From Desulfobacterales bacterium (GTDB taxonomy: Bacteria > Desulfobacterota > Desulfobacteria > Desulfobacterales > UBA5852): DNA of 64,000 nucleotides. A program made the position numbers and the translations under genes. This document shows, piece after piece, positions 14,461-26,992 of this stretch. Position 1 is the first letter of the stretch; every line of letters starts with the position of its first letter. The stretch is from contig CAXXVS010000003.1 of the NCBI GenBank assembly GCA_963674755.2, forward strand, positions 1,408,001 to 1,472,000. Reading direction: 5' to 3'. Below the pieces are notes generated by a model that was not told the origin of the DNA, did no database searches, and saw only the letters and a list, made by a program, of their open reading frames with translations.

Positions 14461-16446
14461 GTGGGGAAGATTCGAATGATGCGCTTCCTTCGTCAGCACA
14501 TTCTATGGACTGCTTCCAGGCCCTTCAACCCGCTCACGTTAGCTTTCACCCACCAGTGGGCAGGTCTGGAAGCGGAATTTCGGGACTACAATTTTAAGGA
14601 ATCCCTGGTCCGCGTCCGCATTGCCATTTCGGTGGCCCTTTTTTTTTACGGCATTTTCGGCATCCTGGATTATGTCATGGTGCCGGATAAAAAGGCGATT
14701 TTCTGGACCATCCGCTACCTTGTCGTTATCCCGCTGGCGCTGGGCGTGCTGGCCTTCTCATTCCGCCCGCAATTCAAATCGTATGCCCAGCCCCTTTTAT
14801 TTATCATGTGCCTGACCGGCGGCCTGGGCATCGTGCTGATGGTCATCCTGGCGGGCCCGCCCGCTACCTATTCCTATTATGCCGGCATTATCCTTATTTT
14901 CATCACCATCCACACCTTTTTGAACATGCGGCTCCTTTGGGCAAGCGCCTGCTCCTGGACTATAGTGGCCGTCTATGAAATAGCGGCCCTCGGGGTCATG
15001 GACACCCCTTTCATCATCCTGGTCAACAACAACTTTTTTTTCATCTCCGCCGTGGCCATCTGCATGCTGGCCGGGTATACCATGGAGCTCAACGCCCGCT
15101 ACCGGTTCCTGTCCGCCCATATGCTGGCGCTGGAAAAGGACAAGGTCGTCCAGGCCAATAAAACCCTGGATCAGCGGGTCCGGGAGAGGACCCGCGCCCT
15201 GTCCGAAGCCAACCGCCGCCTCAAGGAGGAAATGGCTGAACGGATGAAAACCCAGGCCCGCCAGCTCAAACTTGAAAAGGAGCTGAGCAGGCAACGGAAA
15301 ATGGAAGCCATCGGCACGCTTGCCGGCGGGATCGCCCATGACTTCAATAACATTCTTTCCGCCATCATCGGGTATACGGAACTGGCCATGGAGGATGACG
15401 ATCCTAAAGAACGCCGCGGTGACCAGGACGAAGTCCTGAAAGCGGCACGGAGGGCCAAGGCGCTCATCGCCCAGATTCGGACCTTCAGCCGCCAGAGCGA
15501 ACAGGAGGCCGGTCCCATTAAGCTCGGACCGGTAGTGGAAGAGGCCTTGAAGCTGCTCAAAGTCTCCATTCCATCCAGTGTGATGATCCTCAGCCGCCTG
15601 GCGTCAAAGCGCCGGGTCATCGCCGATTCCACCCAGATCCACCGCATCATGGTCAACCTGTGCACCAATGCGGTCCAAGCCATGGACCATCAGCGCGGTA
15701 CCTTGGAAATCGTACTGGAAGATATTGAATTGGATGCCCTGTTCGAAACGAACAAGGAAGGGCTTGATCCCGGTCCCTATGTCAAACTGAGCATCAGCGA
15801 CACCGGCCGGGGCATGACCGAGGAAGTCCGGGAAAAGATCTTCGATCCCTTTTTTACCACCAAAGCCGTAGACGAGGGAACCGGCATGGGACTTTCCGTG
15901 GTTCACGGCATTGTGAAGCAGTACCGGGGATCCATCAGGGTATACAGCGAGCCGGAAAAAGGCACCACCTTTAACATTCTTTTCCCCGCCACCCCAATTG
16001 AAGAAGGAAAAGCCCCCCAGCCGGCCAGCCCGATTACCGGGGGGAATGAGTCCATCGTGGTGCTGGATGATGAACCCACCCTGGCCCGCATGTTGGACGT
16101 ATCCCTGTCGGCGCTGGGGTACCGGGTAGCCGCCTTCTCCGATGCCGACCAGGCTTTGGCATACGTTAAATCGAACGGCCGAAGCATCGACCTTGTGCTA
16201 ACGGACTATTCCATGCCCAAAATGAACGGCATTGAATTCGCGGAACAGATCCTCTCCCTGACCCGTGGCTGCCCGGTGATTCTATGCACCGGCTACAGTG
16301 AAAATGTCACCCGGGAGAAAATGAACCCTGCCAATATCCGGGGATTTTTAATGAAACCCTTGATACGGCACAGTTTGGCAACCACTGTCCGGCGGGTCTT
16401 GGATCAGGATGAAACAGGGGGGCATGATATCGTGTCCGACCAATGA
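14461..16446 (+). CDS. Membrane hybrid sensor histidine kinase (HisKA-HATPase-REC)
   Basis: ~6 TM helices; [34 protein letters not shown]; receiver LTDYSMP. Confidence 0.93.
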
Positions 16447-16531
16447 GGGTAGGCATTTCAAAAAAGTTTTTCGCCCGATTGAAAGGCTTTCAATCACAAC
16501 GATTGCAATATATGCGGCCAAAGAGGACAGA

Positions 16532-17398
16532 ATGAAATTAGAATCCATTAGCATCAAACGTTCAAGCATGCTTACGGAAAAGTGGGTACAAAATCAGATC
16601 GCGGAGGATCCTTCAATCCTTGGGCTTGGCGATCTCGTACTCAAGGACAAAGAGCGCATTCAACAAAATGCAGGCCGTCTTGATCTTCTCTTGCAGGATC
16701 CAGAAACCTTAAAACGCTATGAAGTTGAAATTCAGCTGGGCGCAACTGACGAAAGCCATATTATCCGGACCATAGAATACTGGGATATAGAGCGTAAACG
16801 ATATCCTCAGTATGAGCACGCAGCTGTTATAATTGCAGAGGATATAACATCACGTTTTTTAAACGTGATACAATTGTTTAATGGCACTATTCCACTAATT
16901 GCTATGAAAATGACCGCTTATAAGATCGGCGACGAGTATGCGTTGACGTTCGTAAAGGTTCTCGATGAAATGATTCTTGGACTGGTGGATGACGATGAGC
17001 CGGTGGCTGAACCAACGGACCGAGCATTTTGGGAGACGAAACGCGGAACAAAGAAAACTTTGCAGGTGACGGATTCGTTGTTGACGCTCGTAAAAGAGAT
17101 CGAACCACGGGCAGCATTGAAATACAATAAGCATTATATCGGTATAGAAGTGGAAGGCACAGCTCGAAACTTTGTAAGCTTTATGCCGCGCAAGGCCCAT
17201 GTAATTATGACTATTAAGCTTCCAAAGACAGGCGAAACAGATGAAGTTTTGGAAGAATCAGGTTTAGAGACACTCAGCTACGAAACTCAGTGGCGGCAAT
17301 ACAGACTCAGAATAGATTCCGCAATAGATGAAAAACAAAAAGAGACAATACTCGGACTCGTTAAGCAGGCAATTGATACTTTCGGCAAGAGCGCATAA
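16532..17398 (+). CDS. NucS/PD-(D/E)xK-like nuclease domain protein with DUF5655-like C-terminus
   Basis: TEKWVQNQI..GRLDLLL..YEVEIQLG..HIIRTIEY; start at ATG 16532 after GAGG. Confidence 0.65.
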   Translation: MKLESISIKRSSMLTEKWVQNQIAEDPSILGLGDLVLKDKERIQQNAGRLDLLLQDPETLKRYEVEIQLGATDESHIIRTIEYWDIERKRYPQYEHAAVIIAEDITSRFLNVIQLFNGTIPLIAMKMTAYKIGDEYALTFVKVLDEMILGLVDDDEPVAEPTDRAFWETKRGTKKTLQVTDSLLTLVKEIEPRAALKYNKHYIGIEVEGTARNFVSFMPRKAHVIMTIKLPKTGETDEVLEESGLETLSYETQWRQYRLRIDSAIDEKQKETILGLVKQAIDTFGKSA

Positions 17399-18165: not shown

Positions 18166-20187
18166 TTAATCGCCGAAGGCCTTTTCCACCACGTCTTCCA
18201 CCAATCCCTCGTCAGGCAGGTACGGCAGGGTAATGTGGTCGGAGCTGTTGGCATTGTGCTCGATAGCGGTCTGGATTGAATTTTCGTTGCGGGCCCAGGC
18301 CCGCCGGGCCACACCGCCCATCACATCCCAGGTCATGGCCGAACGGATGATGGCATCCGTTTCCGGCCGCCCGTCGAGCACCAGACCGAACCCGCCGTTG
18401 ATTGCCCGGCCGATCCCCACGCCGCCGCCGTTGTGCAGGGTGACCAGGGTCATTCCCCGGGCGGCATTGCCGGCAAAGCATTGGGTGGCCATATCGGCCA
18501 TTACGTTGCTGCCGTCTTTGATATTGGCCGTTTCACGGAAGGGAGAGTCGGTGCCGCCGGTGTCGTGATGGTCCCGTCCGAGCATCACCGGGCCTATTTT
18601 GCCCTCGCGAACCAATTGGTTGAAACGCAAGGCGATCTTTACTCGTCCCTGGGCGTCCTGATACAAAATCCGGGCCTGGGTTCCGACCACCATCCGGTGC
18701 TTTTCCGCATCCCGGATCCAGATGTAATTGTCCCGGTCCTGGGAACGACGATCCGGATCGATGCATGCCATGGCGGCCTGGTCGGTCCGCATCAGATCCT
18801 CGTGGCGCCCGCTCAGGCAGACCCAGCGGAAGGGCCCGTAGCCGAAGTCGAAAATCTGGGGGCCCATGATGTCTTCCACGTAGGAGGGGAAGATAAAGCC
18901 GTCTTTTTCATCGACCCCGTTGCGGGATATTTCCGAGACGCCGGCATCGTAGACCGCTTTCATAAAGGAATTGCCGTAGTCGAAAAAATAGACCCCGCGT
19001 TCGACAAGCGTCTTGATCAGCTCAAACTGGCGTCTGAGGCTCTGATCGATCAAGGCTGCGAAGCGCTGACGATCTTCTTTAAGCATCCGGGTGCGCTCGG
19101 CGAAATCGATTCCCTGGGGGCAGTAGCCGCCACTGTAGGGAACATGGCAGGACGTTTGGTCCGAGAGCAGATCCACGTGGATTTTCTTTGCCACGATATA
19201 TTCGAGCAGGTCGACGATATTGCCGGCATAGGCAATGGAAACCGGCTTTCTGGCTTGCAAATAGTCATTGGCGATCCGAAATACTTCCTCCAGATCCCCG
19301 GACATCTTGCTCACCCATCCCTGGTTGTGGCGGGTTTTAATCCGGGATTCGTCCACCTCGGCAATGATACCCACGGCACCGGCGATTTCCACCGCCTTGC
19401 CCTGGGCGCCGCTCATCCCCCCCAGGCCGGAGGAGACGAACAGCCGGCCGGCCAGGTCCTCGTCGGCGGGTACGCCAAGCTCCAGGCGCCCGGCACTGAG
19501 GATCGTGTTGTAGGTGCCGTGCACAATTCCCTGGGGCCCGATATACATCCATCCGCCGGCGGTCATTTGCCCATAGTTGGCCACCCCCATTTGCTCGGCG
19601 ATTTCCCAGTCTTGCGGATTGTCAAACATGCCGATCATCAGGGCGTTGGTTAAAATCACTCGCGGGCTGTCCGGTTTGGAACGGAAGAGTCCCACCGGGT
19701 GGCCGGACTCCAGCACCAGGGTTTGATCCTCAGTCATCATCTCGAGATACTTCTTGATCAGGCGGTACTGCATCCAGTTCTGGCACACGCTGCCGGTTTC
19801 ACCATAGGTCACCAGCTCATAGGGATAAAGGGCCACATCAAAATCCAGATTGTTATCGATCTGGACCTGCAGGGCTTTTCCGGCTAGGCACTTGCCCTTG
19901 TACGTATCGATGGGGCGCCCCTGAATAGGGCCGGCCGGCCGAAAGCGGTAGCCGTAAATCCGACCCCGGGTACGCAGTTCCTCCATAAATTCCGGCGCCA
20001 GGCGGGCGTGGTGGGATTCGGGTATGTAGCGCAACGCATTCTTCAGCGCGATCTGGGTCTGCGCTTTGGTCAGCCGGAACCCGCGGTCCGGCGCCCGGCG
20101 GATCCCCTCGACGAACGCCGGCAGTTCCGGCAATTCTTCATCCATCTTAATGGTCATGGCATTAGAAATGATCTTGTTGTCCAACAT
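18166..20187 (-). CDS. hutU: Urocanate hydratase (long ~670-aa type)
   Basis: NNLDFDVALYPYELVTYG, YGQMTAGGWMYIGPQGIVHGT, GLGGMSGAQ, SDQTSCH, FDYGN, GRDHHD, HNGGGVG. Confidence 0.95.
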   Translation of the reverse strand: MLDNKIISNAMTIKMDEELPELPAFVEGIRRAPDRGFRLTKAQTQIALKNALRYIPESHHARLAPEFMEELRTRGRIYGYRFRPAGPIQGRPIDTYKGKCLAGKALQVQIDNNLDFDVALYPYELVTYGETGSVCQNWMQYRLIKKYLEMMTEDQTLVLESGHPVGLFRSKPDSPRVILTNALMIGMFDNPQDWEIAEQMGVANYGQMTAGGWMYIGPQGIVHGTYNTILSAGRLELGVPADEDLAGRLFVSSGLGGMSGAQGKAVEIAGAVGIIAEVDESRIKTRHNQGWVSKMSGDLEEVFRIANDYLQARKPVSIAYAGNIVDLLEYIVAKKIHVDLLSDQTSCHVPYSGGYCPQGIDFAERTRMLKEDRQRFAALIDQSLRRQFELIKTLVERGVYFFDYGNSFMKAVYDAGVSEISRNGVDEKDGFIFPSYVEDIMGPQIFDFGYGPFRWVCLSGRHEDLMRTDQAAMACIDPDRRSQDRDNYIWIRDAEKHRMVVGTQARILYQDAQGRVKIALRFNQLVREGKIGPVMLGRDHHDTGGTDSPFRETANIKDGSNVMADMATQCFAGNAARGMTLVTLHNGGGVGIGRAINGGFGLVLDGRPETDAIIRSAMTWDVMGGVARRAWARNENSIQTAIEHNANSSDHITLPYLPDEGLVEDVVEKAFGD

Positions 20188-20256
20188 GGTTCGTTCCCTC
20201 TCCCGTATTTCCTTTAACCCTATGATTCCGGCACCGGCTGTCGGCCGGGCCGTGTC

Positions 20257-21654
20257 CTAGTGACCGTGCAATTCAGTTATGATCTGGGCCATACTCCGCT
20301 CGCCCGGATCGTCTTCGATAGTTTTCAGAAAACGTTTCGCGTTTTTGCCACCGACTATCGGGGCCGCGAGTTTCATGAATTTGTCCTGGATTTCGCTCAT
20401 CGTAAAAGGGTTCTCGGGGCTTCCCTTGACGAAGCTGACCTCTTTTTCATAGCGTGTATCGCCAACCCAGACGGCGGCTTTACCCAGCAAGCGGTCCTGG
20501 TCATCAAGAAGCTGCTGAAGTCCCTCATCCAGGTGAACTTCGATCTTGTCGGCAATGCGCCGGTAGGCTTCGTTTTCCAGATACTGGTCGAAGGCCAGGT
20601 ACCAGTCCGGCCCGGGGTCTTCGGTGAGCAGATACATGGCCGTCAGGTATTTTACGCTGGAGGCCGTATCCACGGATGTGCCCGGCGGATAATAGCTGAA
20701 ATTTTTTCCCAGCTTCGTCGGTGCGAAGAGATCGATCTTTTTCACGTCGTCGACCTTGAGATCGTTTTCCTCCAGCGCCAGGCGTACAGCTTCGATGCAG
20801 GGCTGGTTGAAGTAGCAGCTCGGAATCTGCTTATAGGTGATGGAATCGATGACGAACGTGCGGCCCCAGTCTGCGAACAGCTTGTCGGGGTCGTAGTGTG
20901 CCGAGCCGGCGATTTTGAAGAACTCCGTCTCCTTTTCCAGCAACAGATGGCTAGCCTTGAAGGGCGTCCGGGCAAACAGGGCGGCGGTGATGCCGGCGAA
21001 ACAGGCATGGCCGGGCATGTCCCGATGCCAGGAAGCGGGGCGCTGGTCTTCGCGAAAGCCCCACATGGCCATGGTAACCGGCAGCGGCGCCAGCGTGCCG
21101 GCAATGCCAAGCGCGTTAACGGTTTCGGCTTCGTCAAAACCGAGCACCCGGGCGCAGGCAACTGCGGCTGCCAGGGCGTAATGGGTCGAAAAGCTGTAGA
21201 CTTCCGGCCGCCGGGGTTCAATCGCCAGTGCATAACGACCGGCCATTTCGTACCCCAAAATGGTGGCGGCGAAAACCTTTTGCAAACTGGCATCCACTTT
21301 TTCCGCCACCGCCAGAACCGCCGGGACGATGCCCTCGCCGGGGTGGCTGATGATAATCGTCCCCGGTTTGAAATTGTCGCTCAGATCGGGGCCGACACAG
21401 CACTGTCCGGTGATGTAGGCCGCAATGGGAGCGGGCAGTTTGCGGCCATCACCGAGGACTGTGGCTTCCGGCAGGCCGCCGAAACTACCGAAGACCTCGA
21501 TGGCGGCCCTTCCCACCGGCGAACGGGCCCCGGCGATCATACAACCAACCGTATCGATAATCGCCTTCTTGGTTTCCGTGATCGTTTTTTCCGGAAAAGA
21601 TTCCGTACCCACAACCTGCTGGACAAACTGTTGTGTCACACCTTCCATTCTCAC
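20257..21654 (-). CDS. MmgE/PrpD family protein (divergent)
   Basis: IIDTVGCMIAG, SHPG, GYE, KQIPSCYF, KGSPENP. Confidence 0.85.
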   Translation of the reverse strand: MRMEGVTQQFVQQVVGTESFPEKTITETKKAIIDTVGCMIAGARSPVGRAAIEVFGSFGGLPEATVLGDGRKLPAPIAAYITGQCCVGPDLSDNFKPGTIIISHPGEGIVPAVLAVAEKVDASLQKVFAATILGYEMAGRYALAIEPRRPEVYSFSTHYALAAAVACARVLGFDEAETVNALGIAGTLAPLPVTMAMWGFREDQRPASWHRDMPGHACFAGITAALFARTPFKASHLLLEKETEFFKIAGSAHYDPDKLFADWGRTFVIDSITYKQIPSCYFNQPCIEAVRLALEENDLKVDDVKKIDLFAPTKLGKNFSYYPPGTSVDTASSVKYLTAMYLLTEDPGPDWYLAFDQYLENEAYRRIADKIEVHLDEGLQQLLDDQDRLLGKAAVWVGDTRYEKEVSFVKGSPENPFTMSEIQDKFMKLAAPIVGGKNAKRFLKTIEDDPGERSMAQIITELHGH

Positions 21655-21672
21655 ATCCTTTCTTTACGGTCT

Positions 21673-23049
21673 TTACGCAAATAACTGGATCAGCTCAGCT
21701 ATATCCGTACACGCTTCCAGGTGGTCGATGCTTTCGATAACGTGTCTTACGCGGTTTTCTCCGATGGACTTTACAGCGTTGTCGCGGAATTTGTCTTCAA
21801 AGTCCTTTCGGGAAAAGGGTTTTTGGGGATGGCCTTTGGCGCAGTACTCTTGCTTTTCGTAAACGCGTCCGCTTTTAGCCCGGAGGCGCACCTTCGGGCT
21901 AAGCACGCTTTCCTCCGCTCGCCGCCGTTCCACCGCTTCATCAGCAATGAGCTTGATGTTCCGGCTGATCCGGCGGATTTCCGGGCTGGTCAGGTTCTCC
22001 GGCGAATACCAGTCCGGCGAAGGCGCAACCCCCTTCAAGATCATCGCCGCGGCATAGGGCAGGCTGAACTGGGCATCGATCATGGAGACCGGTTCGGTGA
22101 CGTTAAAAACCTTGGCCAGATAGGGGGTCAGGTACACTTCCACGGTTTCGATGTCGGCGGGTGTCAGCGCCGTCTCGGCCAGCAGCATGACCAGCGAATC
22201 AAGGCTGGACTGCATGAAGCGGCAGGTGGGGTAGGGCTTGAAACTGAGCTGGTCGAACAGGTAGTCTTCCCCGAAACCCTTCAAGATTTCCCTGTCTTTG
22301 TAATCGGAAGAACCGCACAGCAGATAATAGCCGCTCCGGGCATCGAGTGCGTTCTGGCAGCCGAACAGACCGTTGCGGGCCAGCAGCGCACTCATCAATC
22401 CGGTTGAGGCCGCAAAGCCGACCCCGTCCTTGACCCAGGACATGGGCCGTGATTCAAGTCCCCACATCATATTCGTGTTCGGTACCGGCGCTGAGGCGGC
22501 GGCGATGCCCAGGGCATTGACCAGCGCCCTGGCGGGCAGGTCCAGGACCACCGCCGAAGCGGCCGCCGCTCCCATCACCTGGGTATTGCCGAATCCCCAG
22601 AAATCGTCACGCCGGGGTTCGATGGCCTTGGCAAGCCGGGCCGCGACCTCGTAGCCCATAACAATGGCGCGTATGAGCGCTTTCCCGGTGCATTTGCCGA
22701 TCTCGGCCGCGGCCACCGCCGCCGGTACAATGGCCGGGCCCGGATGGGAGACCGCCAGCGATCCGATCTCGACCGTATCGTCGAAATCGAGCACCTGGCA
22801 CAAAAAGGCATTGATGAAAGCGGCTTCCATCATGGCGGCCCGGCCGGCCCCGCCCCAAATCGTGCAGCCCCCATCGGCGGATGGAGAGCGGGATTTCAGA
22901 AAGATGCCTCCGACCTCTGTTTCCAGGGCCCCCAGGGCATTGCCGACATTGTCCATGATGGCCATTTTGGCCTGAAGGACAGTCGTTTCCGGCAAATCGC
23001 CGAATCCGATCCGGCCGATCCGTTCGGCTAGTGTGCTTGTGATCTTCAT
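21673..23049 (-). CDS. MmgE/PrpD family protein
   Basis: LDFDD..SHPG, GYEV, FKPYPTCRF, AQFSLPY, KGHPQKP. Confidence 0.9.
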   Translation of the reverse strand: MKITSTLAERIGRIGFGDLPETTVLQAKMAIMDNVGNALGALETEVGGIFLKSRSPSADGGCTIWGGAGRAAMMEAAFINAFLCQVLDFDDTVEIGSLAVSHPGPAIVPAAVAAAEIGKCTGKALIRAIVMGYEVAARLAKAIEPRRDDFWGFGNTQVMGAAAASAVVLDLPARALVNALGIAAASAPVPNTNMMWGLESRPMSWVKDGVGFAASTGLMSALLARNGLFGCQNALDARSGYYLLCGSSDYKDREILKGFGEDYLFDQLSFKPYPTCRFMQSSLDSLVMLLAETALTPADIETVEVYLTPYLAKVFNVTEPVSMIDAQFSLPYAAAMILKGVAPSPDWYSPENLTSPEIRRISRNIKLIADEAVERRRAEESVLSPKVRLRAKSGRVYEKQEYCAKGHPQKPFSRKDFEDKFRDNAVKSIGENRVRHVIESIDHLEACTDIAELIQLFA

Positions 23050-23085
23050 ATTGCGTAACTTTTCCCCGTACCCGTCCGGCAGACC

Positions 23086-23775
23086 TTAAAGCTGCTTTTG
23101 CGTCAATTTGAGGCCCGGGATTTCCATTTTCTTTTCAAAGGCGTTAATCAGACGGCTGGCGAACGTCACCAACACCCAGTAAATCACGCCTGCCATGATA
23201 AAAATCTCGATCGGCTTGAAATAGCGGCTTGTCAGGACCTTGGCCTCGGTCATCAGTTCGGGTACCGTGACCATATAGGCCAGTGAAGAGTACTTGATCA
23301 GGTAGGTGATCTCATTAGAGCAGGAGGGAATGGCCTTGCGCAGGGCCTGCGGCAGCACGATAAACACGATCGCCTGCCATTTGCTCATGGCCAGGGAACG
23401 GGCGGCCATCACCTGGGTGGCGGCGATGGAATTGATGGCCCCACGAATGTATTCGGCGTGATAGGCGCCGCTGCAGATGCTGAATGCCGTGATGGCGCAA
23501 AAAAACGGCGTGAGACGCAGCCCCCATGCTGCCAGAACATAAAAAAGAATAAACAATTGCACCAATAGCGGAATGCCGCGGAAGATGATTTGGTGCAGCA
23601 GACACAGGTGCCGGATTCCCGGCCGTCCGTAAACCCGCCCCACGGCGGACAAAATACCCACCAGAAGACCAATGGGCGCCGAGGCAACAATCAATTCCAA
23701 AGAGACGATGGTGCCTTTAATCAGCGGGGGCAGCACCGTGTGGTACAAAAAATTAATTTCTCCCATTGGATTCAA
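23086..23775 (-). CDS. Polar amino-acid ABC transporter permease
   Basis: FRGIPLLVQLF, AYHAEYIRGAI, LPQALR. Confidence 0.92.
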   Translation of the reverse strand: MNPMGEINFLYHTVLPPLIKGTIVSLELIVASAPIGLLVGILSAVGRVYGRPGIRHLCLLHQIIFRGIPLLVQLFILFYVLAAWGLRLTPFFCAITAFSICSGAYHAEYIRGAINSIAATQVMAARSLAMSKWQAIVFIVLPQALRKAIPSCSNEITYLIKYSSLAYMVTVPELMTEAKVLTSRYFKPIEIFIMAGVIYWVLVTFASRLINAFEKKMEIPGLKLTQKQL

Positions 23776-24533
23776 CCCTTGCCGTAAAGCTCTTCGAGTT
23801 TGTGAAGAAATTCGCCCGTCCGTTTCTCGCGGGGATTTGAAAACATCTGGGTTATCGGCCCGCTTTCGAGAATTTTGCCGCCCTCCATGAAAAACATCCG
23901 GTCCCCGGCCGAACGGGCAAACCCCATTTCATGGGTCACCACCATCATGGTCATTTGGCGCTGCGCCAGCTTTTTCATAATTTCAAGCACTTCTCCGATC
24001 AATTCCGGATCCAGGGCCGAGGTCGGTTCGTCGAACAGGATCAACTCCGGCTCCATGGCCAGGGCCCGGGCAATGCCCACCCGTTGTTTTTGCCCTCCCG
24101 AGAGTTCCCCCGGATAGACGTTCATCCATCGGTCCAGCCCCACATCGGTCAGCTTTTCCGAAGCGATTTCCCGCGCGGCGATCTTGTCCATATTTTTCCC
24201 TTTGATCAAACCGATGGTGACATTCGAGAGCACCGTCAAATGATCGAAAAGGGCGAAATCCTGAAATACCATGCTCATTTTCTGCCGGATCTCGTTAACG
24301 TTTTTCCTGGCCACCTCTTTTCCGTTGAACCAAATGCGACCTGTTTCCGGGGGAACCAGATGGTTGATGCAGCGCAAAAGGGTGCTTTTTCCTGTTCCTG
24401 AAGGTCCCGCAATGATGATGCATTCTCCTCGTTCGACTTCAAACGAGATGCCATCCAGGATTTTGGTTTCACCGTAGGATTTGTGAATGTCTTCCGCCTT
24501 TAAGATGACATCCGGCTGCTCTTTTGTATTCAT
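23772..24533 (-). CDS. Polar amino-acid ABC transporter ATP-binding protein
   Basis: GPSGTGKST, LSGGQKQR, DEPTSALDPE, VVTHEMGFA; start MNTKEQ at 24533. Confidence 0.95.
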   Translation of the reverse strand: MNTKEQPDVILKAEDIHKSYGETKILDGISFEVERGECIIIAGPSGTGKSTLLRCINHLVPPETGRIWFNGKEVARKNVNEIRQKMSMVFQDFALFDHLTVLSNVTIGLIKGKNMDKIAAREIASEKLTDVGLDRWMNVYPGELSGGQKQRVGIARALAMEPELILFDEPTSALDPELIGEVLEIMKKLAQRQMTMMVVTHEMGFARSAGDRMFFMEGGKILESGPITQMFSNPREKRTGEFLHKLEELYGKG

Positions 24534-24534
24534 C

Positions 24535-25200
24535 TTAATGGTATCCAGGGATTTTGAATTTTTTTTCCGCGATGTGCAGCACCTTGATGCCGCCATAAGT
24601 CAGGCAAAGATAGATGCCGGCGATGGTCAGATAGATAGTGGTTGGATCGAAAGTGCGCTCGATAATGAAGCCGCCCCGGGTCACCAGCTCGGCCAGGCCG
24701 ATCGAGTAGGCCACTGCTGAATCCTTCAGCACGATGCTGTACTCGCTGGTAAAGCCCGGGATCGACAGCCGCAGGGTTTGCGGCAAGAGAATGTATACAA
24801 TGGACTTGTGCAGGCTCAGCCCCATGGAGCGCGCCGCCATCAGTTGACTGGAGCCGATGGCCTGGATGCTGCCCCGAAAAATTTGGGACTGGTAGGCCGC
24901 ACTGCGCAGCCCGAAGGCCAGCAGCGCCGCTCCGAAAGCGCCGACTTTGATCCCGACGGCGGGCAGCCCCAGCCAGAACAGCCACAGCAAAAGCAGTTCC
25001 GGTTGGCTTCGGAAAAAATTGACATATGTGTTGAGTGCGCGCTGGATGGCCTTACCACCGAACAATTGGCCGAAAGCAATCAAAAGGCCCAGGACCGCAC
25101 CGACCAAAAGGGCGCTCAACACGATGCCGATCGTGATCCCTGCTCCCGACAGCAGATAGGGCAACGATTTCAGTGCCAGCCCGACATCAAATCCCATCAT
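24535..25200 (-). CDS. Polar amino-acid ABC transporter permease
   Basis: SAAYQSQIFRGSI, LPQTLR, LKDSA. Confidence 0.92.
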   Translation of the reverse strand: MMGFDVGLALKSLPYLLSGAGITIGIVLSALLVGAVLGLLIAFGQLFGGKAIQRALNTYVNFFRSQPELLLLWLFWLGLPAVGIKVGAFGAALLAFGLRSAAYQSQIFRGSIQAIGSSQLMAARSMGLSLHKSIVYILLPQTLRLSIPGFTSEYSIVLKDSAVAYSIGLAELVTRGGFIIERTFDPTTIYLTIAGIYLCLTYGGIKVLHIAEKKFKIPGYH

Positions 25201-25292
25201 TCGTCCTTTTCAGCATCAGAAAAACGATTTGCCTGAAGGAGCCGCAGATGACCAAGCCGCCAGCGGTCCTTCAGACAACATCGAAGAGAGGA

Positions 25293-26069
25293 TTACCGCA
25301 AATGGTACTTTGCAATGAGTTCATCCCACTCTGGGGAAGACTTGATCTTGGCCAATCCCGCATTTAATTTCGCCTTGAGATCTCCGTCACCTTTTCGTAC
25401 CCCGATGCCATAGCCGGACCCCCAGACGGTGGCACCAATGATTTTTAGAGACTTACCCTTGATGACCTCCCGGCCGGTGGACATGGCGCTGCAGAACGCC
25501 AAATCGGCCCGCTTGACCAGGACGGCCTGGACCGCCAGGGGAAAGGTATCGTACCAATCGAGTTTCAGATCGATCTTGGTGTTTTTCTTCAGTTGCTGGG
25601 CAAACCACTCGCCATTGGCAGATCCGCGCTGGACAGCGATGGTTCCTCCCGAGAACAAGGCGTTAACCAAGTCGTCCTGATAGCCCTCGGAGGCAATGAT
25701 CGGGGCCATACTTTTCCAGTAGATCTCGGTAAAATCGATGATTTTTTTTCGTTCCGCCGTGGCGGACATGCCCGAGGCAATAAAATCGATTTCACCCGCT
25801 TGAAGCGCCGGAATGATACTTTCCCACTTCAAGGGTTTGACAACGACCTTGAAGTTCTGATCTTTGGCGATCCAGGCGATCATGTCGATGTCAAATCCGC
25901 TGGCCTTGCCATTTTCGTCTACAAAGGTAAAAGGCGGATAGGCCGGATCCACCCCTTGAACGAGGGTCAGTTGTTCACCGGCCCGGACAGGGCCGACCCC
26001 GACGCCCACCATCATCAACAGAGAAACGGACAAAACAACAGACGCTACACGGCACAGATTCTGACTCAT
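25293..26069 (-). CDS. Amino-acid ABC substrate-binding protein (family 3)
   Basis: Signal peptide; YPPFTF, GFDID, GMSATAERKK. Confidence 0.92.
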   Translation of the reverse strand: MSQNLCRVASVVLSVSLLMMVGVGVGPVRAGEQLTLVQGVDPAYPPFTFVDENGKASGFDIDMIAWIAKDQNFKVVVKPLKWESIIPALQAGEIDFIASGMSATAERKKIIDFTEIYWKSMAPIIASEGYQDDLVNALFSGGTIAVQRGSANGEWFAQQLKKNTKIDLKLDWYDTFPLAVQAVLVKRADLAFCSAMSTGREVIKGKSLKIIGATVWGSGYGIGVRKGDGDLKAKLNAGLAKIKSSPEWDELIAKYHLR

Positions 26070-26192
26070 GGTTTTCTCCCTTTAGTTTTGGGCGACCTCG
26101 TCGCGTTTACTATCTCATTCCGTAGGCCCTTCTTTTTCGTCTCCTGGCATTCGCCGGCTTGAGCGCCAAGTCGGACCTCTGGCTTTAGCCGC

Positions 26193-26897
26193 TTACCTCA
26201 GCTGATCCAAAATACTTTGATAGTGTTTTCGAATGGCGGAACTAAACTGATGAAAGGATTTGCTCTTCAAGCCTTCGATGATATTTTTATGGCTCAGTAG
26301 ATGTTCTGGGATACGCCCTCCACTGTAATCCTCATGGATATCGCGGCTGATGGCCAGATTGGTCTCTTTCCAGAGGTATTCCATCAGATTTTCCAGGGGT
26401 TTGTTTTTCCGTTTCATCAGGATTTTGGATAAATCCGAATGGAACTCCTGACTGGCCTTGAGGTACCCTTTGTAATTTCCTTTTTCACCCGCCGCCTTCA
26501 TCTTCTCTAAGCATTTTTCCAGTGTATCGATGTCGTCTATAGTAACTTCTTCCAATTTTTCGGCCGCACACCCCAACTCGATAACCTGGCGCAATCCGAT
26601 GATCTCATCGATGTCGGCATTTCCCAGGATCCCAAATCTGCCTTCCGGGCTTGCTTGTTTTCGTGAGACATAGGTGCCGTTCCCCTGGTGAGATTCAACA
26701 ATACCTAATATAATCAATGCTTTAAGTGACTCGCGCAACGCGCCTCGGCTGACCCCCAGCGCTTCTGCCATCTGCCGCTCATTGGGCAGCTTGTCTCCCG
26801 GCTTGTAGGCACCGTTTTGGATCAACTCCATGATTTGATCGATAATCATGGAATACTTGGTCTTTGTCTCGATTTTGGCGAATCCTGTTTTTGCCAT
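26193..26897 (-). CDS. GntR/FadR-family regulator
   Basis: PGDKLPNERQMAEALGVSRGALRE..GNGTYV; start MAKTG. Confidence 0.92.
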   Translation of the reverse strand: MAKTGFAKIETKTKYSMIIDQIMELIQNGAYKPGDKLPNERQMAEALGVSRGALRESLKALIILGIVESHQGNGTYVSRKQASPEGRFGILGNADIDEIIGLRQVIELGCAAEKLEEVTIDDIDTLEKCLEKMKAAGEKGNYKGYLKASQEFHSDLSKILMKRKNKPLENLMEYLWKETNLAISRDIHEDYSGGRIPEHLLSHKNIIEGLKSKSFHQFSSAIRKHYQSILDQLR

Positions 26898-26936
26898 TCT
26901 GCGGTGAATTCCTTTAGAGGCTGAGGTGGAAGGATA

Positions 26937-26992
26937 AATTGGTAAAACCATTTGGCCAATTAACCATTAACATCGGTTGTGATCACTGTCAA
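26937..26992 (-). promoter_or_regulatory. FadR-type operator AATTGGTAAAACCATTT plus TTGACA -35
   Basis: TGGT-N3-ACCA core at 26940-26950, 40 bp upstream of the gntR start; TTGACA on minus strand at 26992-26987. Confidence 0.65.

What the first reader, a model, noticed from the sequence alone, without database searches (positions are those of the whole stretch)
18166..26992. hutU linked to two MmgE/PrpD enzymes and an amino-acid ABC importer, with no histidase
Seen: co-directional gntR, SBP, permease, ATPase, permease, prpD-like, prpD-like, hutU; 69 bp between the last prpD-like gene and hutU; a FadR-type operator upstream; no hutH/hutI in the window. Established: urocanate normally comes from HutH; the MmgE/PrpD family includes 2-methylcitrate dehydratase, iminodisuccinate epimerase and cis-aconitate decarboxylase. 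Inference: an alternative entry to urocanate, such as dehydration of imidazole-lactate, or epimerisation/elimination on an N-substituted or D-histidine derivative imported by the ABC system. The second paralog is divergent (PDLSD for LDFDD), so the two may form a heteromer.
Basis: partly seen in the sequence, partly recalled or inferred. Interest (0 to 1): 0.72.

Follow-up and report, generated by a model that had tools for sequence, protein, structure and literature searches.

The report
Histidase-independent urocanate entry, selenocysteine variant
Some anaerobic bacteria carry a pair of uncharacterised enzymes, one of which uses selenium in some lineages, that probably turn an imported histidine-derived acid (not histidine itself) into urocanate, a side door into histidine breakdown that we did not find described.

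Summary
The gene run is real. The genome has a normal hutH-hutU-hutI cluster 440 kb away, so this is a second, intact urocanase with its own importer and regulator. The two MmgE/PrpD genes (A, B) are sister paralogs. A lies directly before B in 16 of 20 related loci, and hut genes lie nearby in 10 of 20 (9 of 11 loci of 7 kb or more), under four different transporter types; hutH is in only 1. A Clostridia MAG has the pair, hutU, hutI, ftcD and fhs but no histidase hit. Both enzymes keep the catalytic His and the Lys pair but lose the two His that help hold dicarboxylates; the binding protein lost the Asp that holds alpha-amino groups. New here: B is not degenerate. In all 5 Synergistales-type loci its invariant Cys280 is an in-frame TGA followed by a covarying SECIS-type hairpin; ten database proteins stop at that residue. 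B there is a predicted selenoprotein, a family not found in a 2026 review of prokaryotic selenoproteins. Best model: imidazole-lactate or cis-urocanate is converted to trans-urocanate through a Cys/Sec nucleophile. The substrate is inferred, not shown.

The parts
26987..26992 (-). candidate -35 hexamer (TTGACA) of the operon promoter; -10 imperfect
   Evidence: read in sequence; not passed by the sigma-70 scan
26937..26953 (.). FadR/PdhR-type palindromic operator, between the candidate promoter and the likely gntR start
   Evidence: 3 sites in the genome at up to 1 mismatch
26193..26951 (-). GntR/FCD (FadR-subfamily) regulator; likely start is the ATG at 26897
   Evidence: PF00392 + PF07729; start inferred
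25293..26069 (-). SBP_bac_3 binding protein; carboxylate motif GMSxTxER kept, alpha-amino-binding Asp replaced by Ser
24535..25200 (-). ABC permease 1 (polar amino acid type)
23772..24533 (-). ABC ATPase (GlnQ/TcyN-like, below their cut-offs); start placed at the ATG one base after the permease stop
23086..23775 (-). ABC permease 2
21673..23049 (-). MmgE/PrpD-family enzyme A (458 aa): Q85, D88, H102, K207, K271, C276
20257..21648 (-). MmgE/PrpD-family enzyme B (463 aa from the ATG at 21648; residue numbers here count from 21654): D90, H104, R211, K275, C280. C280 is TGC here and TGA (predicted Sec) in Synergistales-type orthologs
18166..20187 (-). long-type urocanate hydratase HutU, second copy in the genome, conserved motifs intact

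Best explanation
A self-contained scavenging operon. The ABC system imports an imidazole-propionate-skeleton carboxylic acid that has no free alpha-amino group; the PrpD-fold pair converts it without redox cofactor into trans-urocanate; the dedicated HutU passes it on to HutI/FtcD encoded elsewhere. Most likely chemistry (inferred): A does the PrpD-type step, dehydrating imidazole-lactate to the cis (maleate-like) product, with the imidazole ring taking the place of the second carboxylate. B then isomerises cis- to trans-urocanate: Cys280 (Sec in Synergistales) adds reversibly to C-beta, Lys275/Arg211 stabilise the enolate and His104 moves the proton. A simpler form of the same model is that free cis-urocanate is the imported substrate. 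Shown: gene content, synteny, residue pattern, TGA/SECIS pattern. Inferred: substrate, reaction, division of labour, heterodimer. About 0.75 that the pair feeds urocanate without histidase; about 0.45 for this particular chemistry.
For: Synteny: A directly before B in 16 of 20 loci; hutU in 8 of 20; any hut gene in 10 of 20 and 9 of 11 loci of 7 kb or more; hutH in 1 of 20. G439 has both its urocanases at this locus, followed by ftcD, hutI, fhs and cyclodeaminase, and no PF00221 or HutH hit. The window's genome has no hit at E<1e-8 to the MtaA-like, AcnX or cupin partners seen elsewhere, so A+B+HutU is the minimal module. All known family substrates share a C4 1,4-dicarboxylate held by H85, D88, H150, K198, K266 with catalytic H99 (PMC12290011, passages). 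A and B keep D88, H99, K/R198, K266 but lack His at 85 (A Gln 34 of 34; B Val/Met/Ala 27 of 27; other hits His 63 of 77) and at 150 (other hits His 73 of 77). ACOD1's pocket favours cis-oriented carboxylates (PMC9170585, modelling passages). The SBP has Ser for the amino-binding Asp in 9 of 9 orthologs, against Asp in 11 of 12 more distant ones (role of that Asp recalled). Synergistales loci use TRAP carriers; the nearest solved relatives of one binder include lactate and keto-acid binders (E about 1e-35, weak). The L023 operon adds a LarA-family racemase and a D-2-hydroxyacid dehydrogenase. Cys280 is invariant (27 of 27), aligns next to the ACOD1 carboxylate-contacting Leu278, and is TGA in 5 of 5 Synergistales-type loci with a SECIS-type hairpin; Sec typically marks a nucleophile, redox or metal-ligand site (general knowledge). 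A:B model: score 0.87, best control 0.00 (mark reached by 116 of 157 solved and 2 of 215 mismatched pairs; runs agree in at least 92% of contacts, partner pLDDT at least 89). The family is dimeric, so the pass may come from likeness to solved dimers.
Against: No substrate was tested. Removing water from a 2-hydroxy acid needs an unactivated C-beta proton next to imidazole and a poor leaving group, with no metal known in this family. The model does not explain the MtaA/UroD-type Zn-thiolate methyltransferase that follows B in 6 of 20 loci, nor AcnX in 4 of 20. The LarA/dehydrogenase hint comes from one locus. The same Cys is common across the family (67 of 77 other hits; IDS epimerase has it too), so it is not specific to this reaction. 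The genome does have hutH elsewhere, and L033 has an intact hutH beside the pair, so a route through histidine cannot be excluded there. G439 is a MAG of unstated completeness. Ten of 20 loci show no hut gene, although 8 of these are under 6 kb and the other two are near-copies of loci that do.
Confidence: 0.45

Rival explanations
1. Sulfur removal. The substrate is thiourocanate or S-methyl-thiourocanate (cross-fed ergothioneine products) or another thio-imidazole. Cys/Sec280 attacks sulfur, releasing urocanate and leaving an enzyme persulfide that cell thiols reduce. The MtaA-like partner strips or transfers the S-methyl group.
For: Explains Sec, the non-amino-acid SBP, the missing histidase and the HxC...C methyltransferase after B in 6 of 20 loci. 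A second Cys six residues on is present in 25 of 27 Cys forms and is Gly in the Sec forms, resembling a resolving Cys. Reductive thiourocanate desulfuration is reported in gut anaerobes (bioRxiv 10.64898/2026.04.22.720169, passages).
Against: No reductant, rhodanese or ergothionase gene seen in the loci. From recall, the known desulfhydrase belongs to the xanthine oxidoreductase family. No redox precedent in the PrpD fold. Two Cys forms also lack the second Cys.
Confidence: 0.17
2. C-N lyase or racemase-plus-lyase on an N-substituted or D-histidine (hercynine, N-alpha-methylhistidine, an opine).
For: Cofactor-free elimination next to a plain imidazole is known for histidine betaine TMA-lyase (bioRxiv 10.1101/2025.08.13.670108, abstract). 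A quaternary amine would not need the SBP Asp as a hydrogen-bond partner. Members of the wider subfamily sit near MttB genes (L060; probably also G000 C3:2037007, judged by eye).
Against: The known enzymes for this are HAL-family. No MttB was seen in the A/B loci. TRAP carriers and the Asp-to-Ser change argue against a cationic amino acid. Sec is poorly explained.
Confidence: 0.13
3. Retro-Michael lyase on a C-beta adduct of urocanate (3-hydroxy- or 3-thioether imidazole-propionate, for example a cysteine or methanethiol adduct), a damage-repair role like the yxe operon for S-(2-succino)cysteine.
For: Fits the family's alpha-proton/enolate chemistry best. The top sequence hit in the PDB is the B. 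subtilis 'IRG1' protein, which I recall to be YxeQ; YxeQ is of unknown function in an ABC-importer operon for a thioether adduct (PMC9706529, passages). Wider-subfamily genes sit with peptide importers and M20 hydrolases.
Against: No evidence that such adducts are abundant in these habitats. A free cysteine adduct would still carry an alpha-amino group.
Confidence: 0.13
4. The pair acts on something unrelated to urocanate, or on a modified urocanate, and hutU is a passenger or has a shifted specificity.
For: L023 carries an extra short-type urocanase with changed motifs (GQSTAG for GQMTAG). In L038/L041 hutU is on the opposite strand a few genes away.
Against: The link survives four transporter types and several lineages. 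Ten of 11 long-HutU motifs are identical in all 9 sequences and the eleventh varies only F/Y. Related subfamily members showed no such link.
Confidence: 0.12

Closest known systems
Iminodisuccinate epimerase (PDB 2HP0/2HP3) and (S)-(R)-methylsuccinate isomerase (PMC12290011)
   Same: Fold (B model against 2HP0: TM 0.84, rmsd 2.9, 19% identity), catalytic His, Asp88, Lys198/Lys266 positions, and the Cys five residues after Lys266 in IDS epimerase.
   Different: His85 and His150 lost in both A and B; a W..xRPxSW loop added at the predicted dimer interface; an obligate paralog pair; Sec variant; hut context.
2-Methylcitrate dehydratase PrpD/MmgE
   Same: Family and fold (TM 0.71-0.76); dehydration to a cis product is the template for the proposed step of A.
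   Different: 59.8 and 24.1 bits against a 950 cut-off for the one PrpD model hit; no methylcitrate-cycle genes identified beside the pair; dicarboxylate-binding His lost.
cis-Aconitate decarboxylase ACOD1 and B. subtilis 'IRG1' (7BRA)
   Same: Best sequence and structure hits; His103, Lys207, Lys272 equivalents kept.
   Different: His159 equivalent lost; ACOD1 has His277 where A and B have Cys; no tricarboxylate context.
Known non-HutH sources of urocanates: histidine betaine TMA-lyase, ergothionase, thiourocanate desulfhydrase
   Same: Feed urocanate or a derivative from a modified histidine in anaerobes.
   Different: The lyases are HAL-family proteins (family recalled for the betaine lyase); none is reported as PrpD-fold in the passages read.
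Thiol-dependent cis-trans isomerases (maleate isomerase; cis-urocanate isomerase activity of Micrococcus luteus) - recalled, no call
   Same: Proposed mechanism: reversible thiolate addition to an acrylate.
   Different: Unrelated folds; I recall no gene assigned to the Micrococcus activity, and the listing showed none by title or abstract start.

Membership tests
MmgE/PrpD superfamily | PF03972 + PF19305 domains and two-domain fold | tested here: met
   Both domains above cut-off in A and B; AF2 pLDDT 95.1 and 93.7; Foldseek TM 0.78-0.84 to ACOD1, 7BRA and IDS epimerase for B
MmgE/PrpD superfamily | Catalytic His (H99), D88, K198, K266 | tested here: met
   A: H102, D88, K207, K271 in 34 of 34; B: H104, D90, K275 in 27 of 27, with Arg for K198 in 27 of 27
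Characterised MmgE/PrpD enzymes (C4-dicarboxylate substrates) | His85 and His150 that help bind the two carboxylates | tested here: not met
   No His at either position in 34 A or 27 B sequences; the His150 column differs between MAFFT and phmmer but has no His in either
IDS epimerase / methylsuccinate isomerase | Second base Tyr145/Tyr148 | tested here: inconclusive
2-methylcitrate dehydratase PrpD | Curated model cut-off and prp operon context | tested here: not met
   59.8 and 24.1 bits against 950; neighbours are hut, transport and methyltransferase genes
Urocanate hydratase HutU | TIGR01228 above cut-off; conserved motifs | tested here: met
   422.7 against 375; best PDB hit 6UEK, long type; motifs match the hutHUI copy
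Thiourocanate and S-methyl-thiourocanate hydratases | NF058530 / NF058531 cut-offs | tested here: not met
   308 against 930 and 343 against 880
HisJ/GlnH-type amino-acid binding proteins | Asp that binds the alpha-amino group (role recalled) | tested here: not met
   Ser in 9 of 9 orthologs aligned, Asp in 11 of 12 others; no NCBIfam SBP model reaches its cut-off
Bacterial selenoproteins (Synergistales-type B orthologs, not the window copy) | In-frame TGA aligned to a conserved Cys, homology continuing in frame | tested here: met
   5 of 5 loci with the split form (3 distinct lineages); read-through gives 465 aa; 10 clusters 61-83% identical to each other all end at that residue; TGA is a normal stop and Trp is TGG in the 16 neighbouring ORFs counted
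Bacterial selenoproteins (Synergistales-type B orthologs) | SECIS model: 3-9 nt loop, 4-16 bp stem, G in the first two loop positions, 16-37 nt from UGA, MFE at most -7.5 (PMC13188914) | tested here: met
   Loop CGUGC, 6 bp, 26 nt, -8.2 to -11.1 kcal/mol; 24 of 24 cells paired, 2 pairs with changes on both sides, though 66 of 500 shuffles reach this with only 4 sequences; 1-3% of synonymous recodings are as stable; no Rfam SECIS hit
Bacterial selenoproteins (Synergistales-type B orthologs) | selA/selB/selC/selD in the host genome; Se incorporation | not testable with these tools
   Those contigs are not held as genomes; Synergistota are named as selenoprotein-rich in PMC13188914
Operon | Co-transcription of B and hutU | not testable with these tools
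   No RNA run listed

The most novel reading that the evidence does not exclude
A heterodimeric PrpD-fold enzyme, the first of its family with a selenocysteine, uses a Cys/Sec nucleophile to open a histidase-independent route to urocanate from imidazole-lactate, cis-urocanate or a thio-urocanate. This would show that the family's overlooked Cys is catalytic and that the fold works on monocarboxylates.
Probability: 0.55. Interest if true: 0.85.

Novelty: new variant of a known kind. Interest (0 to 1): 0.74.

Why it matters
It would add a new entry to the urocanate node, whose neighbours (cis-urocanate, imidazole-lactate, imidazole-propionate, ergothioneine products) are host-relevant metabolites, several with poorly known degrading enzymes. 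It challenges the published generalisation that MmgE/PrpD enzymes act on C4-dicarboxylates through a His/Lys(/Tyr) mechanism, and points to a Cys present in most family members as a catalytic residue. It adds a candidate selenoprotein family of an unusual, apparently non-redox enzyme class that databases hold as truncated 277-aa proteins. All of this is testable with a UV/HPLC assay and a short substrate list. The system is rare, which limits its ecological weight.

Tried and rejected
Distribution: no B ortholog in 40 relatives, 400 genomes of the same phylum (at most 4 candidates scored per genome) or 87 others of G439's class; the 400-genome search of G439's phylum with the A alignment gave only two wider-subfamily genes besides G439. 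So the system is patchy, not lineage-wide. 'Split gene' reading of the 277-aa proteins rejected: the break is an in-frame TGA at the invariant Cys. Genetic code 4/25 rejected. Pseudogene rejected: pN 0.25-0.29 against pS 0.78-0.88 downstream of the TGA between lineages, like upstream. 'B is an inactive subunit' rejected. A specialised HutU not supported. Promoter and terminator scans at chance level. Rfam: nothing in the window, no SECIS family at L038. ESM Atlas gave only generic MmgE/PrpD clusters. Literature: 'PrpD'+'urocanate' 4 papers, none on this by title or abstract start; 'imidazole lactate'+'urocanate'+'dehydratase'+'bacteria' 0; 'selenoprotein'+'MmgE'+'PrpD' 1, only in its reference list; cis-urocanic acid isomerase listing uninformative; listing uninformative. 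PrpD, MmgE, PF03972 and PF19305 occur 0 times in the 2026 selenoproteome review and not as names in the deep-Sep supplements. The one BSepDB supplement held was cut and showed only a genome list, so it is uninformative. Subscription papers (Seebeck and others) are not in the library and bioRxiv supplements are closed, so 'not in print' is limited to these searches. A metal or Fe-S ligand role for Cys/Sec280 was considered because the fold resembles CyuA and serine dehydratase; no three-Cys pattern is evident, but it is not excluded.

Full report
OBSERVATION. The eight co-directional genes, the 69-bp gap and the operator are present as described. The urocanase is the long, about 670-aa type (best PDB hit 6UEK). 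The genome (97% complete) also has a normal cluster about 440 kb away: hutH, hutI and a second hutU 69% identical to this one, with hutC-like and ftcD-like ORFs recognised by eye. So the organism has a histidase; what needs explaining is a duplicate, intact hutU under its own FadR-type regulator and importer.

THE PAIR IS A DISTINCT, RARE UNIT. B has 37 other hits at 50-76% identity and then a drop to about 28% (best 120 of 284 listed). A has a matching set down to about 37-40%. Against all 50%-identity representatives the B profile gives one full-length representative far above the rest (860 bits), one truncated one (476), then 325 and below. In a FastTree tree of 91 sequences (a chosen subset, midpoint-rooted), A and B are sister clades (support 0.937, with one outside sequence on the A side and one further hit inside A), B on a long branch, inside a larger uncharacterised subfamily (0.926). 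Sources label members Clostridia, Spirochaetes and Synergistales. B orthologs were not found in 40 relatives, 400 genomes of the phylum or 87 of G439's class.

SYNTENY. Of 20 loci found with B, A is directly upstream on the same strand in 16 (in L042 only as a fragment). One has an A fragment on the other strand, and three have under 430 bp upstream. Long hutU lies in 8 of 20; hutI or a cyclodeaminase in 2 more. Of 11 loci of 7 kb or more, 9 have hut genes; the other two (L037, L039) are over 90% identical in DNA to loci that do and are cut by contig ends. The loci are not independent: two groups are near-copies in DNA, and a third pair has 95% identical HutU, leaving about seven lineages with hut genes besides the window. 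Transporters differ: SBP_bac_3 ABC here, sodium/solute symporter (with a cupin in 3 loci), TRAP, SBP_bac_8 ABC. Only L033 has hutH, with an intact ASG motif. In the Clostridia MAG G439 the run is hutU, symporter, cupin, A, B, MtaA-like, corrinoid, MtaA-like, DMT, D-2-hydroxyacid dehydrogenase, AcnX, LarA-like, ftcD, hutI, fhs, cyclodeaminase, with a divergent short urocanase opposite; both of its urocanases lie here and two histidase searches found nothing (completeness not given). SBP, A and B proteins with equal longest-contig lengths (20208, 184226, 9891) suggest the window's own layout recurs in at least three other assemblies (inference). Control: five genes of the wider subfamily in four genomes sit with peptide importers, M20 hydrolases, ATC-hydrolase-like or MttB genes and showed no hutU in the DNA fetched; two of those genomes have hutU elsewhere.

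ACTIVE SITES. PMC12290011 (passages) states that all characterised members act on a C4 1,4-dicarboxylate held by H85, D88, H150, K198 and K266 with H99 as base. In an alignment of 153 sequences (34 A, 27 B, 8 near, 77 other hits, 7 genome paralogs; part of the 240 proteins then held) both A and B keep D88, H99 and K266; K198 is Lys in A and Arg in B; H85 and H150 are lost in all 61. Both fold confidently and B matches the family's structures at TM about 0.8. A with B scores 0.87 against a best control of 0.00 (116 of 157 solved and 2 of 215 mismatched pairs reach the mark; at least 92% contact agreement; partner pLDDT at least 89). ACOD1 is a dimer (PMC13495696, passages), so this shows likeness and cannot separate a heterodimer from two homodimers. 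The subfamily's added loop (about 186-209) is in the predicted interface.

SELENOCYSTEINE. Ten B clusters are recorded as about 277-aa proteins. All ten end at KxVP[ST] or KxIPT, one residue before the Cys that is invariant in 27 of 27 full-length B, although they are only 61-83% identical to each other. In the 5 loci with DNA for this form (L035, L036, L037, L038, L041; three lineages) the codon is TGA, the frame continues to a normal end, and read-through gives 465 aa. The 15 Cys-form sequences examined, the window included, have TGC or TGT. Synonymous sites between the lineages are near saturation, yet the downstream half is under purifying selection. A 6-bp hairpin with loop CGUGC lies 26 nt after the TGA in all of them, with two pairs changed on both sides. 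It meets every criterion of the bacterial SECIS model quoted in PMC13188914 (passages), and only 1-3% of synonymous recodings fold as well. With four sequences the covariation alone is not significant (66 of 500 shuffles), and Rfam has no hit. Neighbouring genes use TGA as stop and TGG for Trp. L037/L038 and L041 match proteins labelled Synergistales. The host sel genes could not be checked. MmgE/PrpD was not found in that review or in the deep-Sep supplements. The window's copy has Cys, although its genome has tRNA-Sec. The Cys aligns with IDS epimerase Cys271 and ACOD1 His277, next to Leu278, which contacts a carboxylate in modelling.

LIGAND CLUES. The SBP keeps the carboxylate motif but has Ser for the Asp that binds alpha-amino groups (role recalled) in 9 of 9 orthologs aligned (of 10 found; one partial left out), against Asp in 11 of 12 others. 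The Synergistales TRAP binder is nearest to structures that include lactate and keto-acid binders, at low identity, and its metal site is not obviously kept. The MtaA-like gene after B in 6 of 20 loci has an intact HxC...C motif; it, AcnX and the cupin have no hit in the window's genome.

MECHANISM. With no oxidoreductase in the minimal module, the substrate should be an isomer or adduct of urocanate. The family pocket is shaped for cis-butenedioates; replacing one carboxylate by imidazole gives cis-urocanate, and the 2-methylcitrate dehydratase reaction mapped the same way gives imidazole-lactate to cis-urocanate. A dehydratase (A) and a Cys/Sec cis-trans isomerase (B) would explain an obligate pair with two complete catalytic sets, the Sec, the non-amino-acid binder and the LarA/dehydrogenase neighbours. 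It does not explain the methyltransferase unless ring-methylated variants are used, and the dehydration is chemically demanding. I put this at 0.45, thio-urocanate desulfuration at 0.17, a C-N lyase at 0.13, a C-beta adduct lyase at 0.13, and no true link to plain urocanate at 0.12.

COMPARISON AND VERDICT. A and B are MmgE/PrpD proteins but fail the residue test for every characterised subgroup; HutU is an ordinary long-type urocanase. Known non-HutH sources of urocanates are not reported as PrpD-fold in what I read. Papers seen: passages of PMC12290011, PMC13495696, PMC9170585, PMC12647591, PMC13188914, PMC9706529 and bioRxiv 10.64898/2026.04.22.720169; abstract and outline of bioRxiv 10.1101/2025.08.13.670108; supplement searches only for PMC13326102 and PMC12013277. 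Verdict: a real, conserved, apparently undescribed variant pathway with a new candidate selenoprotein family; substrate open but directly testable. Interest 0.74.

Noticed in passing
L023:2608-4269 (-): Short-type urocanase with changed motifs (GQSTAG for GQMTAG, SPYRETE, YQGGG for HHGGG), followed by an AraC gene and divergent from the PrpD-pair operon; below both thio-urocanate hydratase cut-offs. Possibly acts on a substituted urocanate.
   Followed up: partly
L023:15061-18957; L035:16830-18454; L038:15347-16618 and 20855-21364: Two-subunit aconitase X genes beside the pair in 4 of 20 loci (two copies in L038/L041), and a LarA-family racemase below all subfamily cut-offs in L023.
   Followed up: partly
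L027:5398-7350; L039:9303-11978: Two tandem histidinol-dehydrogenase-family genes downstream of the pair; in L039 they follow a sugar-type ABC system, a TIM-barrel isomerase and an SDR.
   Followed up: no
L061:8409-9773 and 15603-16973; L063:10095-11474; L064:9647-11026; L060:3316-4761: The wider subfamily (Asn for His85, no His150, invariant Cys) is large and uncharacterised; its genes sit with peptide ABC importers, M20 hydrolases, ATC-hydrolase-like proteins or MttB.
   Followed up: partly
G000:C3:2037007-2044026: A related PrpD-like gene lies downstream of what look like a betaine-type ABC importer and an MttB-like gene (recognised by eye, not scanned).
   Followed up: no
G000:C2:2202864-2203259: A PF03972 hit with one internal TAG close to two other PrpD-family genes; probably a broken copy.
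   Followed up: no
G000:C2:1713078-1714637: Second aromatic amino acid lyase (ASG motif intact) beside ORFs that look like TRAP, acyl-CoA ligase and ketosynthase genes.
   Followed up: no
window:16409-17398 (+): 329-aa ORF with no Pfam hit, near the end of the operon on the opposite strand; a D-x(n)-E-x-Q-like stretch resembles a nuclease motif (by eye).
   Followed up: no
window:30811-33013: A second GntR/FCD regulator divergent from a TRAP binding protein 35% identical to the Synergistales one; appears unrelated to the hutU operon.
   Followed up: no
L044:1263-2975; L042:1-579: A TPP-dependent 2-oxoacid:ferredoxin oxidoreductase subunit follows B in one locus, and an aldehyde:ferredoxin oxidoreductase precedes A in another.
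   Followed up: no
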